Origin: the human T2T-CHM13v2.0 reference genome, Homo sapiens | Direction: 5' to 3' (one strand) | Length of the DNA: 64,000 nucleotides | Assembly (NCBI RefSeq): GCF_009914755.1 | Contig: NC_060937.1 | Shown: positions 40,717 to 46,801 of the stretch, piece after piece | How positions within the stretch are numbered: position 1 is the stretch's first letter | Layout of the letters: every line of letters starts with the position of its first letter | The notes under the pieces: model-generated | Database searches by the model: none | What the model saw: the letters and a program-made list of their open reading frames with translations, nothing else | Told to the model about the DNA's origin: nothing | Position numbers and translations under genes: made by a program

Positions 40717-41008
40717 TGCCTGGGTGTGGTGGCTTACATCTGTAATCGCAACACTTTGGGAGGTTGAGGCAGGTGGATTGTTTGAGCCTAGGAGTTCCAG
40801 ACCAAGCCTGGGCAACATGGTGAAACCTTGCCTCTACAAAAAAATACAAAAATTAGCCAGGTATGGTTGTGCAAGCCTATAGTCTGAGGAACTGGGGAGG
40901 CTGAGGCAGGAGAATTGCTTGAGCCTGGGAAGCGGAGGTTGCGGTCAACTGAGACTGCACCACTGCACTCCAACCTGGGCGACAGAGCAAGACCCTGTCT
41001 CAAAAAAA
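40717..41008 (+). mobile_element. Alu (J/early S-like)
   Basis: Dimeric Alu body with short tail. Confidence 0.92.
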
Positions 41009-41037
41009 TTTTTTTTCTTCATTATTAGAGAACCAGA

Positions 41038-41485
41038 TGTCAAAATCTTGCTCCTTGACCAAACCTTAGTCAGGCTTCTCTAAGCCTCTTTTCCACTAGG
41101 TCTCAACTTTGATTCCCCATCCTTGCCAGACCTTTATAACCCAATTTTAGTGAAATTAGAATTCTTCTAAGTCAGTTTCGAGAGAATCCCAAAATATACT
41201 GGATAATCCTCGATCTCTGATCACCCTGGCCTGCCTTTAGTAACATTCCTGTCAAGTTGGTTTTGCAAAAATCCCCCCGACCCTTGATGTCTCCTCTTAG
41301 TACATTTTCCATCCCATTGGCCCCTCACTCTGCTCATTGACTATAAATCCCTGGCTGTCTTTATTGTATTCAGAGTTGAGCCCAATCCCTCTCCCCTATT
41401 GAGATAGTCTCCACATCTTTTGAAATAGTCCTGAATGAAGTCTTCTTACTGTTTAACAAGTCTCAGAATAATGTTTTCTTTAGCA
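41038..41485 (+). mobile_element. MER31-like solo LTR immediately upstream of HERV-H
   Basis: 'ctccttgaccaaaccttagtcaggc...cccttgatgtctcctcttagt...ctataaat...' homologous to 36570-37019. Confidence 0.75.
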
Positions 41486-41630
41486 CAGGCAGATGTTATA
41501 AACAGTTCAAATGAAAAGTTGAGGCTGACTCTCTTCGGACTCAGCCCGCCTGCACCCAGGTGAAATAAACAGCCATGTTGCTCACACAAAGCCTGTTTGG
41601 TGGTCTCTTCACACGGACGCGTATGAAATT

Positions 41631-41648
41631 TGGTGCCGTGACTCGGAT
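41631..41648 (+). other. Primer-binding site complementary to tRNA-His
   Basis: TGGTGCCGTGACTCGGAT directly after U5. Confidence 0.95.
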
Positions 41649-41771
41649 CGGGGGACCTCCCTTGGGAGATCTATCCCCCGTCCTCCTGCTCTTTGCTCCA
41701 TGAGAAAGATCCACCTACGACCTCAGGTCCTCAGACCAACCAGCCCAGGAAACATCTCACCAATTTCAAAT

Positions 41772-41780
41772 CCGGTAAGC
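41772..41780 (+). other. HERV-H major splice donor (retained, so the copied RNA was unspliced here)
   Basis: ccg|GTAAGC about 125 nt after the PBS. Confidence 0.8.
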
Positions 41781-41819
41781 GGCCTCTTTTTACTCTCTTC
41801 TCCAACCTCCCTCACTATC

Positions 41820-42011
41820 CCTCAACCCCTTCTCCTTCACCCTCAGCGGCAAGTCCCGCTTTCCTGGGACAGGGGCAAGTACCCCTCAACCCCTTCTCCT
41901 TCACCCTCAGCGGCAAGTCCTGCTTTCCTGGGGCAGGGGCAAGTACCCCTCAACCCCTTCTCCTTCACCCTCAGCAGCAAGTCCCGCTTTCCTAGGGGGC
42001 AAGAACCCCCC
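41820..42011 (+). repeat. 64-bp tandem repeat x3 in the HERV-H leader
   Basis: 'ctcaaccccttctccttcaccctcagc' recurs at 41821, 41885 and 41949. Confidence 0.9.
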
Positions 42012-42182
42012 AATCACTTATTTCTGCACCCCAACCTCTTATCTCTGCGCCCCAATCCCTTATTTCCGCACCCTGACCTCTTATTTCCGTGCCCCAACCC
42101 CTTCTCTGCTTTTCTGGAGGGCAAGAACCCCCCACCCCTTCTCCGTGTCTCTACTCTTTTCTCTGGGCTTGCCTCCTTCACT

Positions 42183-43367
42183 ATGGGTAAGCTTCCACCT
42201 TCCATTCCTCCCTCTTCTCCCTTAGCCTGTGTTCTCAAAAACCTAAAACCTCTTCAACTAACACCTGACCTAAAACCTAAATGCCTTATTTTCTTCTACA
42301 ATGCTGCTTGACCCCAATACAAATTCGACAGTAGTTCCAAATAGCCGGAAAACGGCACTTTCAATTTTTCCATCCTACAAGATCTAAATAATTATTGTCG
42401 TAAAATGGGCAAATGGTCTGAGGTGCCTGACGTCCAGGCATTCTTTTACACATCAGTCCCTTCCTAGTCTCTGTGCCCAGTGCAACTCGTCCCAAATCTT
42501 CCTTCTTTCCCTCCCGCCTGTCCCCTCAGTCCCAACCCCAAGCGTCGCTGAGTCTTTCTAATCTTCCTTTTCTACAGACCCATCTGACCTCTCCCCTCCT
42601 CACCAGCCCAAGCTAGGTCCCAATTCTTCCTCAGCCTCCACTCCTCCACCCTATAATCCTTCTATCACCTCCCCTCCTCACACCTGGTCTGGCTTACAGT
42701 TTCGTTCTGTGACTAGCCCTCCCCCACCTGCCCAGCAATTTATTCTTAAAAAGGTGGCTGGAGCTAAAGGCATAGTCAAGGTTAATGCTCCTTTTTCTTT
42801 ATCCCAAATCAGACAGCGTTTAGGCTTTTTCATCAAATATAAAAACCCAGCCCAGTTCATGGCTCGTTCAGCAGCAACCCTGAGACGCTTTACAGCCCTA
42901 GACCCTAAAAGGTCAAAAGGCCATCTTATTCTCAATATACATTTTATTACCCAATCTGCTCCCGACATTAAATAAAACTCCAAAAATTAAATTCCAGCCC
43001 TCAAACCCCACAACAGGATTTAATTAACCTCGCCTTCAAGGTGTACAATAATAGAAAAAAGTTGCAATTCCTTGCCTCCACTGTGAGACAAACCCCAGCC
43101 ACATCTCCAGCACACAAGAACTTCCAAACGCCTGAACCGCAGTGGCCAGGCGTTCCTCCAGAACCTCCTCCCACAGAAGCTTGCTACAAGTGCCAGAAAT
43201 CTGACCACCAGGCCAAGGAATGCCTGCAGCCCAGGATTCCTCCTAAGCCGTGTCCCATCTGTGCGGGACCCCACTGGAAATTGGACTGTTCAACTCACCT
43301 GGCAGCCACTCCCAGAGCCCCTGGAACTCTGGCCCAAGGCTCTCTGACTGACTCCTTCTCGGCTTAG
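42183..43367 (+). pseudogene. gag: HERV-H gag remnant
   Basis: MGKLPPSIPPSSPLACVLKNL start; two CCHC knuckles CYKCQKSDHQAKEC and CPICAGPHWKLDC; multiple stops and frameshifts. Confidence 0.85.
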
Positions 43368-43399
43368 CAGCTGAAGACTGATGCTCCCCGATTGCCTCG

Positions 43400-44605
43400 G
43401 AAGCCCTGTAGACCATCATGGACGCCAAGCTTTGGGTAACTCTCACAGTGGAAGGTAAGTCCGTCCCCTTCTTAATCAATACGGAGGCTACCCACTCCAC
43501 ATTACCTTCTTTTCAAGGGCCGGTTTCCCTTGCCTCCATAACTGTTGTGGGTATTGACAGCCAGGCTTCTAAACCTCTTAAAACTCCCCAACTCTGGTGC
43601 CAACTTAGACAATACTCTTTTAAGCACTCCTTTTTAGTTATCCCCACCTGCCCAGTTCCCTTATTAGGCTGAGACACTTTAACTAAATTATCTGCTTCCC
43701 TGACTATTCCTGGACTACAGCTGTATCTCATTGCCGCCCTTCTTCCCAATCCAAAGCCTCCTTTGCATCCTCCTCTTATATCCCCCCACCCTAACCCACA
43801 AGTATAAGATACCTCTACTCCCTCCTTGGCGACCGATCATGCACCCCTTACCATCTCATTAAAACCTAATCACCCTTACCCCACTCAACGCCAATATCCC
43901 ATCCCGCAGCATGCTTTCAAAGGATTAAAGCCTGTTATCACGCGCCTGCTACAGCATGGCCTTTTAAAGCCTATAAACTCTCCTTACCATTCCCCCATTT
44001 TACCTGTCCTAAAACCAGACAAGGCTTACAGGTTAGTTCAGGATCTGCGCCTTATCAACCAAATTGTTTTGCCTTTCCACCCTGTGGTGCCAAACCCATA
44101 TGCTCTCCTATCCTCAATACCTCCCTCTACTACCCATTATTCTGTTCTAGATCTCAAACATGCTTTCTTTACTATTCCTTTGCACCCCTCGTCCCAGCCT
44201 CTCTTTGCTTTCACTTAGACTGACCCTGACATCCATTAGGCTCAGCAAATTACCAAGGCTGTACTGCCGCAAAGCTTCACAGACAGCCCCCATTACTTCA
44301 ATCAAGCCCAAATTTCTTCCTCATCTGTTACCTATCTCGGCATAATTCTCATAAAAACACACGTGCTCTCCCTGCCAATAGTGTCCGACTGATCTCTCAA
44401 ACCCCAGCACCTTCTACAAAACAACAACTCCTCTCCTTCTTAGGCATGGTTAGCGTGGTCGGAATTCTTACACAAGAGCCAGGACCACATCCTGTAGCCT
44501 TTCTGTCCAAACAACTTGACCTTACTGTTTTAGCCTAGCCCTCATGTCTGCGTGCAGCGGCTACTGCTGCTTTAATACTTTTAGAGGCCCTCAAAATCAC
44601 AAACT
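43400..44605 (+). pseudogene. pol: HERV-H pro-pol remnant (dead protease, partial RT)
   Basis: Protease motif reads LINTEA instead of DTGA; RT motifs QYPIP, YRLVQDLR, VLDLKHAFF; YxDD region absent; RNase H and integrase absent. Confidence 0.88.
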
Positions 44606-45040
44606 TTATCAGTCCTCCAGGCCCAAGTTGACTCTTTAGCTGCAGTTGTCCTCCAAAACCGCCGAGGCCTTGACTTACTGCTGAAAAAGGAGGACTCTGC
44701 ATATTCTTAAATGAGGAGTGTTGTTTTTACCTAAATCAGTCTGGCCTGGTGTATGACAACATAAAAAAACTCAAGGATAGAGCCCAAAAACTTGCCAACC
44801 AAGAAAGTAATTACGCTGAACCCCCTTGGGCACTCTCTAACTGGATGTCCTGGGCCCTCCCAATTCTTAGTCCTTTAATACCCATTTTTCTCCTCCTTTT
44901 ATTCGGACCTTGTATCTTCCGTTTAGCTTCTCAATTCATCCAAAACCGTATCCAGGTCATCACCAATCATTTTATATGACAAATGTTTCTTCTAACATCC
45001 CCACAATATCACCCCTTACCACAAGACCTCCCTTCAGCTT
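44596..45040 (+). pseudogene. env: HERV-H env transmembrane-subunit remnant
   Basis: SQTLSVLQAQVDSLAAVVLQNRRGLDLL (ISD start), frameshift, then AEKGGL-CIFLNEECC (CX6CC) and hydrophobic anchor LPILSPLIPIFLLLLFGPC; stop at 44977-79. Confidence 0.9.
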
Positions 45041-45200
45041 AATCTCTCCCACTCTAGGTTCCCACGCCGCCCCTAATCCCACTTGAAGCAGCTCTGAGAA
45101 ACATCGCCCATTCTCTCTCCATACCACCCCCCAAAAATTTTCGCCACTCCAACACTTCAACACTATTTTGTTTTGTCTTATTAATATAAGAAGGCAGGAA

Positions 45201-45614
45201 TGTCAGGCCTCTGAGCCCAGGCAAGGCCATCGCATCCCCTGTGACTTGCACGTATACATCCAGATAGCCTGAAGTAACTGAAGATCCACAAAAGAAGTAA
45301 AAACAGCCTTAACTGATGACATTCCACCATTGTGATTTGTTCCTTCCCCACCCTAACTGATCAATGTACTTTGTAATCTCCCCCACCCTTAAGAAGGTAC
45401 TTTGTAGTCTCCCCCACCCTTAAGAAGGTTCTTTGTAATTCTCCCCACCCTTGAGAATGTACTTTGTGAGATCCACCCCTGCCCCTTTGACTGTAACTTT
45501 CCATTACCTTCCCAAATCCTATAAAACGGCCCCACCCCTATCTCCCTTCGCTGACTCTCTTTTCGGACTCAGCCCACCTGCACCCAGGTGAAATAAACAG
45601 CTTTATTGCTCACA
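45201..45614 (+). promoter_or_regulatory. LTR7Y-type U3-R with 31-bp repeats, CCCCACCC motifs, TATA box and poly(A) signal
   Basis: PPT aagaaggcaggaa then TGTCAGGCCTCTGAGCCCAGG; 31-bp unit at 45366/45397/45428; TATAAAA 45520-26; AATAAA 45592-97. Confidence 0.85.
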
Positions 45615-45798
45615 AAAAAAAAAAAAGAAAAATTGAAAAAAAAACATAAATAAAAAGGAATCGAATTTTAATGGGAACGAAACTTTTTCTTTTTTTTTTA
45701 CAAGGAGCAGGGAAGTGTGCTGGAAACGATGGAACCTACATGTCTATCAGTTATCTACAGTTTATAAACCCATGCCAAATAGCTCAAAGACAACAAAC

Positions 45799-46118
45799 TG
45801 TTGTAGGAAAATACAAGTTCTTGTCACACAACTGGGATAATTTAGGCACGTAGATACATTATAGGGTGAGTAGAGTGGGGTTTATTGGGTGAAAAGGAAG
45901 AAAAGGGAAACAGGGACTCTCAGCAAAGTGACAGTCCTGCTAACAGATTTCCCTCCCCACAGATTGAATCCCGGTTACCACCAGAAACAGGCGAGGCCAG
46001 GCTCCTTCCCCCTGCAAAGGGCATAAACTTCTCAAGGCTCTACCCCATCCTCCCAGTGCATAGACCAGTTGAAGATTCTCCAGGGACCTTTCCCCTTATC
46101 TGCCTCCTGCATCCATCA
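45799..46118 (-). mobile_element. MER61-like solo LTR
   Basis: TG..CA ends with 4-bp TSD aaac; reverse complement starts tgatggatgcaggaggcagataagggg. Confidence 0.8.
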
Positions 46119-46801
46119 AAACTAGAGTTGGCTGTAGCACAACCTGGAAGGGTGTGCTATGGATAATACGTTGCTTTCCACTGAAGTATAATTTTTGTTT
46201 TCGAGTAGAGCATGGTAACCATATATAGCATGAGTCACACTATAAATTCCTTTAAACGTCAGCTTTGCAACCACACTATCCCAGAACCCAAAGCACGACT
46301 TCTCATAATTTGGATTTAGAAATAATTAATCATGACAAACTAGGAAAAAAGTTGATATTTAACTCTCACAGGTCCTCAATGCAGTGTAATCTACACACCT
46401 TTGAGAAGAAATGTCTAGTCATGGACTGTCCTTGCTTGCAAGATTGATTTAGCGAAGGCTGTAAAATTTCTCCCAATAAGGCCAATAAAGATATAAAATA
46501 TATTATAATTTTTATTTTCAAAGAAAATGCATTTTTTTCAGTTTTAAGAAAAATATATTGGAAACAAAATTGGAATCTAGTTAAATAAAGTGCTAGGGAG
46601 ATTAAGGAGTTCTTAATGTTACTTCATTTAAATTCTTATATAACTTTCATTGCATTTATTTCACAGTCTTTTATACACTTTTTTGCACATATTTTTATCC
46701 TATTCAATTCAAGACATAGTCCCTCTATAGAACCTAGTACTTTTCCTATAATATATGTAGGCCAAATGATAGAAGATTGAATGAAATTCAATGAAGGGTT
46801 C

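What the first reader, a model, noticed from the sequence alone, without database searches (positions are those of the whole stretch)
41509..45636. HERV-H copied as a capped, polyadenylated mRNA by L1 machinery, not integrated as a provirus
Seen: the element begins at 'gctgactctc' (41524). In its own 3' LTR that position lies exactly 30 nt after TATAAAA (45520 to 45550), so it is the predicted cap site, and the 5' U3 is absent. The 3' LTR stops about 16 nt after AATAAA and runs into A13, with no U5. The flanks share a ~14-bp duplication (aaatgaaaagttga / aaaagaaaaattga, 12/14) instead of a short integrase TSD. One extra G (41523) sits between the TSD and R. Established: this is the architecture of L1 target-primed retrocopies, common for HERV-W but less often noted for HERV-H, and an extra 5' G is attributed to copying of the cap. 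Inference: a full-length unspliced transcript of an LTR7Y-type HERV-H was mobilised in trans in the germline or early embryo. It is a fossil recording that family's in vivo TSS and poly(A) site.
Basis: partly seen in the sequence, partly recalled or inferred. Interest (0 to 1): 0.8.

Follow-up and report, generated by a model that had tools for sequence, protein, structure and literature searches.

The report
HERV-H RNA retrocopy made by L1
This is a dead copy of a human endogenous retrovirus H transcript that was pasted into chromosome 13 by the LINE-1 machinery rather than integrated as a virus, and it is one of several dozen such copies in the genome.

Summary
The element runs 41524-45613. 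It starts at R-U5-PBS with no U3 and ends at U3-R with no U5. A13 follows, a 14-bp repeat (12/14) flanks it, and one G (41523) sits between the repeat and R.

The interpretation also holds. The copy is colinear (92%) with a deleted-type HERV-H provirus elsewhere in the genome. It keeps both splice donors that other retrocopies used, so it comes from an unspliced genomic-length RNA of about 4.1 kb.

It is not unique. A scan of the same genome found 59 LTR7-type R ends running straight into poly(A), against 0 for the reversed-pattern control.
- Nine start at exactly the same nucleotide as this one and have long duplications that begin with A.
- All nine carry a G before R, and in eight it is not in the target. 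None of 64 complete LTRs has G at that position.
- Two related proviruses have 5-bp duplications.

Not verified: the LTR7Y call and the orthologous empty site. In ten literature searches I found no description of this HERV-H class. One review calls HERV-W the only HERV group mobilised by L1.

The parts
41509..41522 (+). 5' copy of the target-site duplication (aaatgaaaagttga)
   Evidence: It matches 45623-45636 at 12/14. It starts with A and is preceded by ttc.
41523..41523 (+). single extra G between the duplication and R (untemplated; read as cap-derived)
   Evidence: The 3' flank has A after the duplication and U3 has C before R. The same extra G is unambiguous at 7 of the 8 other R-start copies. 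G occurs before R in 0 of 64 complete LTRs.
41524..41585 (+). 5' R, starting at the transcription start
   Evidence: It is the only stretch repeated at the 3' end. No U3 lies upstream anywhere in the window.
41586..41628 (+). U5
   Evidence: It aligns to the U5 of complete LTRs, which end at ...atgaaa. It is absent after the 3' R.
41631..41648 (+). primer binding site for tRNA-His
   Evidence: The 18-mer is identical to a published HERV-H 'PBS-tRNA-His' primer (PMC3253121). It is also identical to the first 18 nt of a primer covering the 3' end of human tRNA-His (PMC11662652).
41775..41776 (+). first splice donor (GT), not used in this copy
   Evidence: The retrocopy L059 joins 41775 to about 43266. 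This copy reads through.
41819..41993 (+). 64-bp tandem repeats in the leader (2.7 copies)
   Evidence: Copy number differs among related copies.
42787..43223 (+). gag remnants (capsid p30 piece and nucleocapsid zinc knuckle), broken by stops
   Evidence: Gag_p30 E 6e-4 (below the Pfam cut-off). zf-CCHC E 1.6e-4.
43436..43669 (+). protease remnant
   Evidence: RVP E 1.2e-5.
43456..43457 (+). second splice donor (GT), not used in this copy
   Evidence: The retrocopy on C22 joins 43456 to 45056. This copy reads through.
44009..44215 (+). reverse transcriptase, N-terminal piece only
   Evidence: RVT_1 E 1.1e-7, profile positions 2-95 of 205.
44674..44943 (+). C-terminal end of the env transmembrane subunit; the rest of pol and env is missing
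   Evidence: TLV_coat E 1.9e-24, profile positions 467-560 of 560.
45201..45549 (+). U3 of the 3' LTR, with 31-bp repeats (45366-45467) and TATAAAA at 45520
   Evidence: It is 93% identical to the best LTRs elsewhere in the genome.
45550..45613 (+). 3' R with AATAAA (45592-45597), ending at the poly(A) addition site
   Evidence: Positions 45553-45573 are the reverse complement of a published HERV-H R-region primer.
45614..45626 (+). poly(A) tail, A13
   Evidence: No U5 follows.
45623..45636 (+). 3' copy of the target-site duplication (aaaagaaaaattga)

Best explanation
A HERV-H provirus of the common deleted type (gag, protease, a stub of RT, the tail of env) was transcribed from its 5' LTR. 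Transcription started at the G of GCTGACTC, 30 nt after the TATA box. The RNA stayed unspliced and was cleaved and polyadenylated at the CA 16 nt after AATAAA in the 3' R.

LINE-1 proteins then used this RNA in trans.
- The L1 endonuclease nicked an A/T-rich target on chromosome 13.
- The T-rich end primed reverse transcription on the poly(A) tail.
- The cDNA was copied to the very 5' end, adding one G opposite the cap.
- Second-strand nicking 14 bp away produced the duplication.

The result is a promoterless, non-coding fossil of the transcript.

Shown: the anatomy, the colinearity, and the recurrence of the same ends at other loci.
Inferred: L1 as the enzyme, the cap as the source of the G, a germline or early-embryo setting, and an age of roughly 10-30 million years.
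For: (1) Ends. R-U5-PBS at the 5' end with no U3, and U3-R plus A13 at the 3' end with no U5.

(2) Family identity.
- The PBS 18-mer equals a published HERV-H PBS primer and a tRNA-His 3'-end primer.
- The 3' R contains the published HERV-H R primer site.
- Pfam finds gag, protease, RT and env-TM remnants in retroviral order.

(3) Colinearity.
- 41816-45618 aligns at 92.1% over 3,826 columns with a provirus on C14 that has two full LTRs.
- That provirus and one on C4 have 5-bp duplications.

(4) A class exists.
- The pattern 'R end + A10' with up to 3 mismatches hit 66 places, against 0 for the reversed pattern.
- All 59 places inspected, this one included, are LTR7-type U3/R or R followed by an A tail and unrelated flank.
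- 7 of the 66 were judged unrelated from their matched strings and were not fetched.

(5) Five-prime ends.
- 23 of the 59 were assigned a 5' end. 9 of these 23 start at the same nucleotide as ours.
- Those 9 are 5 unspliced copies (4,090-4,971 nt), 3 spliced or internally deleted ones (804-2,817 nt) and one made of R alone (64 nt).
- The other 14 start elsewhere, as 5'-truncated or chimeric copies, with candidate duplications of 10-19 bp.

(6) Extra G.
- All 9 R-start copies have a G between the duplication and R. At 8 of them the next target base is A or T.
- In 64 LTRs that have U3, the base before R is C in 38, T in 25, A in 1 and G in 0.

(7) All 9 duplications begin with A and most follow T, like the TT/AAAA motif quoted for HERV-W pseudogenes (PMC5016936).
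Against: - The duplication at this locus is imperfect (12/14) and A-rich. 5.8% of A-rich 14-mers in the window match as well.
- The nick-site context here (ttc/aaat, or ttc/aaaa if the 3' copy is ancestral) is only a near match to TT/AAAA.
- The extra G could in principle be a mutated 15th base of the duplication, G against A. That is excluded only by analogy with the other copies.
- No orthologous empty site could be examined.
- 36 of the 59 sites have unassigned 5' ends.
- 3 of the 14 non-R-start duplications are weak: 10-12 bp and not at the boundary of homology (L051, L058, L096).
- L1 as the enzyme is inferred from hallmarks, not shown.
Confidence: 0.93

Rival explanations
1. An ordinary integrase-made provirus that later lost its 5' U3 and its 3' U5 by two separate deletions.
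For: Old HERV-H copies carry many deletions, and this one lacks most of pol and env.
Against: - Both deletions would have to end exactly at the transcription start and at the poly(A) site.
- An A13 run and a 14-bp flank repeat would have to arise as well.
- The same two boundaries recur at 8 other loci with different flanks.
- Two related true proviruses have 5-bp duplications next to complete LTRs.
Confidence: 0.02
2. A cDNA of HERV-H RNA inserted without the L1 endonuclease, for example at a DNA break or made by another reverse transcriptase.
For: At this locus the nick-site motif is imperfect, and the duplication is 12/14 and A-rich.
Against: - Endonuclease-independent insertions typically lack duplications and often lack tails (general knowledge, recalled).
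- This copy has a tail and a 14-bp duplication starting with A.
- All 9 R-start copies have duplications that begin with A, with cores of 9-15 bp or up to 19 bp if up to two mismatches are allowed.
- 5'-truncated copies with 14-19 bp duplications are common in the set.
Confidence: 0.04
3. The copy reached chromosome 13 as part of a segmental duplication of a retrocopy located elsewhere.
For: Three of the 59 sites (L040, L041 and L042 on C9) share flanks and are duplicates of one event.
Against: - None of the other R-start copies shares flank sequence with this one.
- Their identity to it is only 91-93%.
- The duplication sits directly at the element's ends.
Confidence: 0.01

Closest known systems
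HERV-W processed pseudogenes (Pavlicek et al. 2002, known to me only as cited; Grandi et al. 2016, PMC5016936, passages read)
   Same: - 5' LTR reduced to R-U5 and 3' LTR reduced to U3-R.
- A poly(A) tail.
- A 5-15 bp duplication at a TT/AAAA-like site.
- Frequent 5' truncation.
- Attributed to L1.
   Different: - The family differs (HERV-H / LTR7, PBS-His).
- The class is a small minority here: 59 sites against 3,245 first-look LTR7 candidates, which is not a copy number. For HERV-W, pseudogenes form a large share.
[quoted passage not shown]
Processed pseudogenes (retrocopies) of cellular mRNAs
   Same: The same route: a Pol II transcript, a poly(A) tail, L1 target-primed reverse transcription, loss of the promoter, and long duplications.
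   Different: - The template is a retroviral genomic RNA, so the copy resembles a provirus with clipped LTRs.
- A complete U3 promoter is carried along at the 3' end.
Spliced HERV-H elements in genomic DNA (Goodchild, Freeman and Mager 1995; not held, known only through its citation in PMC11998498)
   Same: Genomic HERV-H copies that derive from processed RNA. Three of the R-start retrocopies found here are spliced or internally deleted.
   Different: [quoted passage not shown] That implies LTR-bearing, retrovirus-style copies rather than R-to-poly(A) copies. I could not read the paper to check.
Full-length L1 and SVA insertions with an untemplated 5' G (Raiz et al. 2012, PMC3287187, passages read)
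   Same: [quoted passage not shown]
   Different: [quoted passage not shown] Here it is unambiguous in 8 of 9 R-start HERV-H copies, and the ninth also has a G.

Membership tests
L1-processed HERV pseudogene (criteria quoted in PMC5016936) | 5' LTR is R-U5 only | tested here: met
   The element starts at R (41524). No U3 copy lies anywhere upstream in the window.
L1-processed HERV pseudogene (criteria quoted in PMC5016936) | 3' LTR is U3-R only | tested here: met
   R ends at 45613, 16 nt after AATAAA. No U5 follows.
L1-processed HERV pseudogene (criteria quoted in PMC5016936) | poly(A) tail | tested here: met
   A13 at 45614-45626.
L1-processed HERV pseudogene (criteria quoted in PMC5016936) | target-site duplication of variable length (5-15 bp) | tested here: met
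   14 bp matching 12/14. The chance of such a match is 0.4% for any window 14-mer and 5.8% for A-rich ones.
L1-processed HERV pseudogene (criteria quoted in PMC5016936) | TT/AAAA insertion motif | tested here: inconclusive
   This locus has tc/aaat, or tc/aaaa if the 3' copy is ancestral. In the other 8 R-start copies every duplication starts with A, and the conservative cores mostly follow T (tt at 4 loci).
L1-processed HERV pseudogene (criteria quoted in PMC5016936) | colinear with the retroviral RNA | tested here: met
   92.1% over 3,826 columns with the internal part and 3' LTR of a C14 provirus. The 5' R-U5 and leader (41524-41837) align separately at 94.0%.
HERV-H | primer binding site for tRNA-His | tested here: met
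   41631-41648 matches 18/18 to a published HERV-H PBS primer and to a tRNA-His 3'-end primer.
HERV-H | LTR7-type LTR and gammaretrovirus-like internal genes | tested here: met
   - The LTR is 85-93% identical to 39 other full-length genomic matches, several of which flank homologous internal sequence.
- The published HERV-H R primer site is present.
- Pfam hits are Gag_p30, zf-CCHC, RVP, RVT_1 and TLV_coat.
- The name 'LTR7' itself comes from no tool output.
LTR7Y subfamily | best match to the LTR7Y consensus (Dfam/RepeatMasker) | not testable with these tools
   No repeat library was available. Indirect evidence only: the nearest LTRs are 93% identical and the nearest full copies about 92%. 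Carter et al. date most 7y growth to 10-14 My ago. This makes a very young subfamily doubtful.
Integrase-made provirus | two complete LTRs and a short (here 5-bp) duplication | tested here: not met
   U3 is missing at the 5' end and U5 at the 3' end. The related C4 and C14 proviruses show 5-bp duplications.

The most novel reading that the evidence does not exclude
HERV-H, not only HERV-W, was a recurrent substrate of LINE-1.

The genome holds at least 57 independent retrocopies that end at the LTR7 poly(A) site. Together they form a fossil transcriptome of the family in the ancestral germline or early embryo.
- They fix the start site to one nucleotide.
- They record unspliced and spliced isoforms.
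- They record read-in chimeras.
- They include a 64-nt RNA that was capped and then polyadenylated within the 5' R itself.
- They show near-universal copying of the cap as one G.

The class appears not to be described in print.
Probability: 0.4. Interest if true: 0.55.

Novelty: new member of a known kind. Interest (0 to 1): 0.45.

Why it matters
The locus itself is inert: promoterless, full of stop codons, and in a stretch with no annotated gene. The value lies in the class.

- It corrects the textbook-style statement that only HERV-W was mobilised by L1.
- It warns that HERV-H 'proviruses' counted in catalogues include retrocopies that never had a 5' promoter. This matters for locus-level expression studies in stem cells and embryos.
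- It gives a base-resolution, experiment-free record of the HERV-H transcription start, splice choices and poly(A) site.
- It offers a clean natural data set on cap copying by the L1 reverse transcriptase: a G in 9 of 9 full-length starts, unambiguous in 8.

Tried and rejected
(1) Paralogous empty site. The upstream flank (41200-41522) was searched in the genome. It belongs to an old repeat with 723 first-look places at 68-80% identity. The matches stop at about 41473-41498, some 25-50 bp before the insertion point, so no paralogue spans the site.

(2) Full census of 5' ends. Smaller requests were granted.

(3) Rfam found no family in 41000-46200.

(5) Literature.
- Ten searches and passages of twelve papers gave no description of HERV-H L1 retrocopies.
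- The exact phrases 'HERV-H/HERVH pseudogene', 'retrocop...' and 'processed' occur in 0 papers.
- Pavlicek et al. 2002 is not held and may mention other families. Goodchild et al. 1995 is not held either. The library also lacks most subscription journals.

(6) The LTR7Y call could not be tested.

(7) Splicing as the cause of the short length (4.1 kb) was rejected. A two-LTR provirus has the same internal layout.
Full report
**Observation.** Reading the two ends confirms every coordinate in the finding.
- The element begins with 'gctgactctc' at 41524.
- The same decamer lies at 45550 in the 3' LTR, 30 nt after the T of TATAAAA (45520).
- AATAAA is at 45592-45597, the LTR stops at 45613, and A13 follows (45614-45626).
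- The flanks carry aaatgaaaagttga (41509-41522) and aaaagaaaaattga (45623-45636), matching 12/14.
- One g (41523) separates the 5' repeat from R.

A BLAST of 41400-45750 against the whole window shows one repeat between the ends, R itself (41524-41590 against 45550-45618, 89.9%). U3 (45201-45549) has no second copy upstream, and U5 has no second copy downstream.

Taken alone, the flank repeat is only moderately beyond chance. 237 of 59,635 window 14-mers (0.4%) match the 3' flank as well, as do 237 of 4,059 A-rich ones (5.8%) and 183 of 20,000 shuffles (0.9%).

**What the element is.**
- The 18 bases at 41631-41648 are identical to a published primer 'targeting PBS-tRNA-His' of HERV-H (PMC3253121, methods passage).
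- They also equal the start of a primer covering the 3' end of human tRNA-His (PMC11662652).
- The R-region primer of the first paper is the reverse complement of 45553-45573.
- Pfam finds, in retroviral order and all broken by stops: a Gag_p30 piece (42787-42972, E 6e-4, below cut-off), a zinc knuckle (43179-43223), protease (43436-43669), the first half of RT (44009-44215) and the last 94 profile positions of a gamma-type Env (44674-44943, E 1.9e-24).
- Integrase, RNase H and most of env are absent.
- Rfam finds nothing.

**Unspliced copy of a deleted-type provirus.** The window's own assembly could be searched. The 3' LTR has 40 further scored matches. Of these, 39 cover all or nearly all of the LTR at 85-93% identity and one is a 74% match. 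Two pairs of hits are proviruses. One, on C14 (25444253-25448982, minus strand), has two complete LTRs. It aligns with 41816-45618 at 92.1% over 3,826 columns, and with the 5' R-U5 and leader at 94.0%. So the short length (4,090 nt) is the layout of the source, not the result of splicing.

Other retrocopies did splice.
- L059 joins 41775 to about 43266, and about 43432 to about 45192.
- The C22 copy joins 43456 to 45056.
- Our copy keeps the GT at 41775-6 and 43456-7 and the AG at 45056-7, and reads through them.

**A class, not a singleton.** Among the first LTR hits, one on C5 also ended R in a long A run without U5. I then scanned the genome for the last 22 bases of R followed by A10, with four free positions and up to 3 mismatches.
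- There were 66 hits (31 forward, 35 reverse), against 0 and 0 for the pattern read backwards.
- Seven hits were judged unrelated from their matched strings. Six share one different string. They were not fetched.
- The other 59, ours included, were all inspected. Each shows LTR7-type sequence up to the poly(A) site, then an A-rich tail and unrelated flank.
- Three of them (L040-L042 on C9) share flanks and count as one event, so there are at least 57 independent events.
- The tail begins 16 nt after the hexamer in 31 of 59 sites (ours among them) and 14 nt after it in 17. The range is 13-22 nt.
- This is a lower bound, because copies with decayed tails escape the pattern.

Nine start at exactly the base where ours starts.
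- Five are unspliced: ours 4,090 nt, C5a 4,260 nt, C8 4,455 nt, C5b 4,636 nt and C6 4,971 nt.
- Three are spliced or internally deleted: C22 2,817 nt, L059 809 nt and L070 804 nt.
- One consists of R alone: L047, 64 nt plus tail.

Fourteen start elsewhere and have candidate duplications of 10-19 bp.
- Seven of these repeats (11-19 bp) sit at the boundary of HERV-H homology: L036, L078, L081, L087, L090, L091 and L094.
- Three are long (15-19 bp, exact) but lie away from that boundary: L031, L060 and L073. L073 has L1-like sequence between the duplication and the LTR, so it is probably a chimeric transcript.
- L034 has a 16-bp repeat with one mismatch, 55 bp before the homology boundary.
- L051, L058 and L096 have repeats of only 10-12 bp away from the boundary and are weak.

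Thirty-six sites remain unassigned, including C12/L057, where no duplication was found.

**The extra G.**
- In all 9 R-start copies a single G lies between the duplication and GCTGACTC.
- The next base of the target, read from the 3' flank, is a, t, t, a, g, a, t, a, a. So the G is unambiguous in 8 copies and ambiguous in one, C8.
- In 64 distinct LTR copies that still have U3, the base before the R-start motif is C in 38, T in 25, A in 1 and G in 0. The motif starts 29-32 nt after the TATA T, and exactly 30 nt in 34 copies.
- The G is therefore templated neither by the LTR nor by the target.
- Raiz et al. [quoted passage not shown]
- At our locus alone the G could be a mutated 15th base of the duplication. 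The class makes that unlikely.

**Who inserted it.**
- The two related proviruses have complete LTRs and 5-bp duplications, GGGCC and GAGCC.
- The R-start retrocopies have duplication cores of 9-15 bp, or up to 19 bp when up to two mismatches are allowed. All begin with A, and the conservative cores mostly follow T.
- Ours is tc/aaat, or tc/aaaa if the 3' copy is ancestral. That is a near match only.
- A tail, long A-initial duplications, frequent 5' truncation and copying of spliced RNAs are the hallmarks listed for HERV-W pseudogenes in Grandi et al. 2016.
- L1 as the enzyme is an inference from these hallmarks.

**Age (inference).**
- Ours differs by about 8% from each other full copy, roughly 4% per lineage. 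Depending on the rate assumed, that suggests some 20-30 million years as an upper bound.
- By my count, using conservative cores, the duplications of the 9 copies differ at 5 of about 113 positions. This points to 10-20 million years.
- Carter et al. 2022 (passages) date most LTR7y growth to 10-14 My ago. The LTR7Y label is therefore doubtful, but it could not be tested.

**Novelty.**
- Ten searches and passages from twelve papers gave no description of HERV-H L1 retrocopies.
- The phrases 'HERV-H/HERVH pseudogene', 'retrocop...' and 'processed' occur in 0 papers.
- Vargiu et al. 2016 say their 'proviruses' may include processed pseudogenes, which they did not separate.
- Thomas et al. 2018 excluded pseudogenes for HERV-W only.
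- Pavlicek et al. 2002 and Goodchild et al. 1995 are not held, and most subscription journals are missing. An older report cannot be excluded.
- The mechanism is the known one, so I file this as a new member of a known kind.

**Limits.**
- No primate orthologues and no repeat library were available.
- 36 sites are unassigned.
- Only 40 of 3,245 first-look LTR candidates were scored, so 'nearest relative' is provisional.
- A paralogous empty site does not exist, because the flanking old repeat ends about 25-50 bp before the insertion.

Noticed in passing
L047 (G000:C14:33487229-33487260 region, minus strand): A retrocopy that consists only of an extra G, the 64-nt R and a tail of about 34 A, flanked by a 13-bp exact duplication. 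It implies a capped RNA that was polyadenylated at the promoter-proximal site in the 5' R (or in a solo LTR) and was then copied by L1.
   Followed up: partly
L073 (G000:C11:26170950 region): A 15-bp exact duplication encloses about 700 bp of non-HERV-H sequence followed by LTR7 U3-R and poly(A). By eye the first part looks like L1. It is probably a retrocopy of a chimeric read-in transcript that used the LTR7 poly(A) signal.
   Followed up: no
window 41200-41498: The upstream flank belongs to an old interspersed repeat (723 first-look places in the genome, 68-80% identity). It is not among the masked stretches listed for the window, and its family was not named.
   Followed up: partly
window 45201-45613: The retrocopy carries a complete U3 at its 3' end, with TATAAAA followed by a G/C-rich box, facing the downstream flank. 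It could in principle act as a promoter there. This was not tested.
   Followed up: no
window 41819-41993 and 45366-45467: There are tandem repeats in the leader (64 bp, 2.7 copies) and in U3 (31 bp, 3.3 copies). The copy number of the leader repeat differs among related HERV-H copies.
   Followed up: partly
six places listed (for example G000:C1:37078747 and C11:5691045): Six hits share a different string ending in poly(A) (ATTAAAAAGCTTTATTGCTCA...). They are probably retrocopies of some other transcript. They were not fetched.
   Followed up: no
L026 (G000:C4:97608807-97609204, minus strand): An LTR7-type R runs into a long (CA)n microsatellite in place of U5. By eye it is followed by L1-like sequence. 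Its origin is unclear.
   Followed up: no
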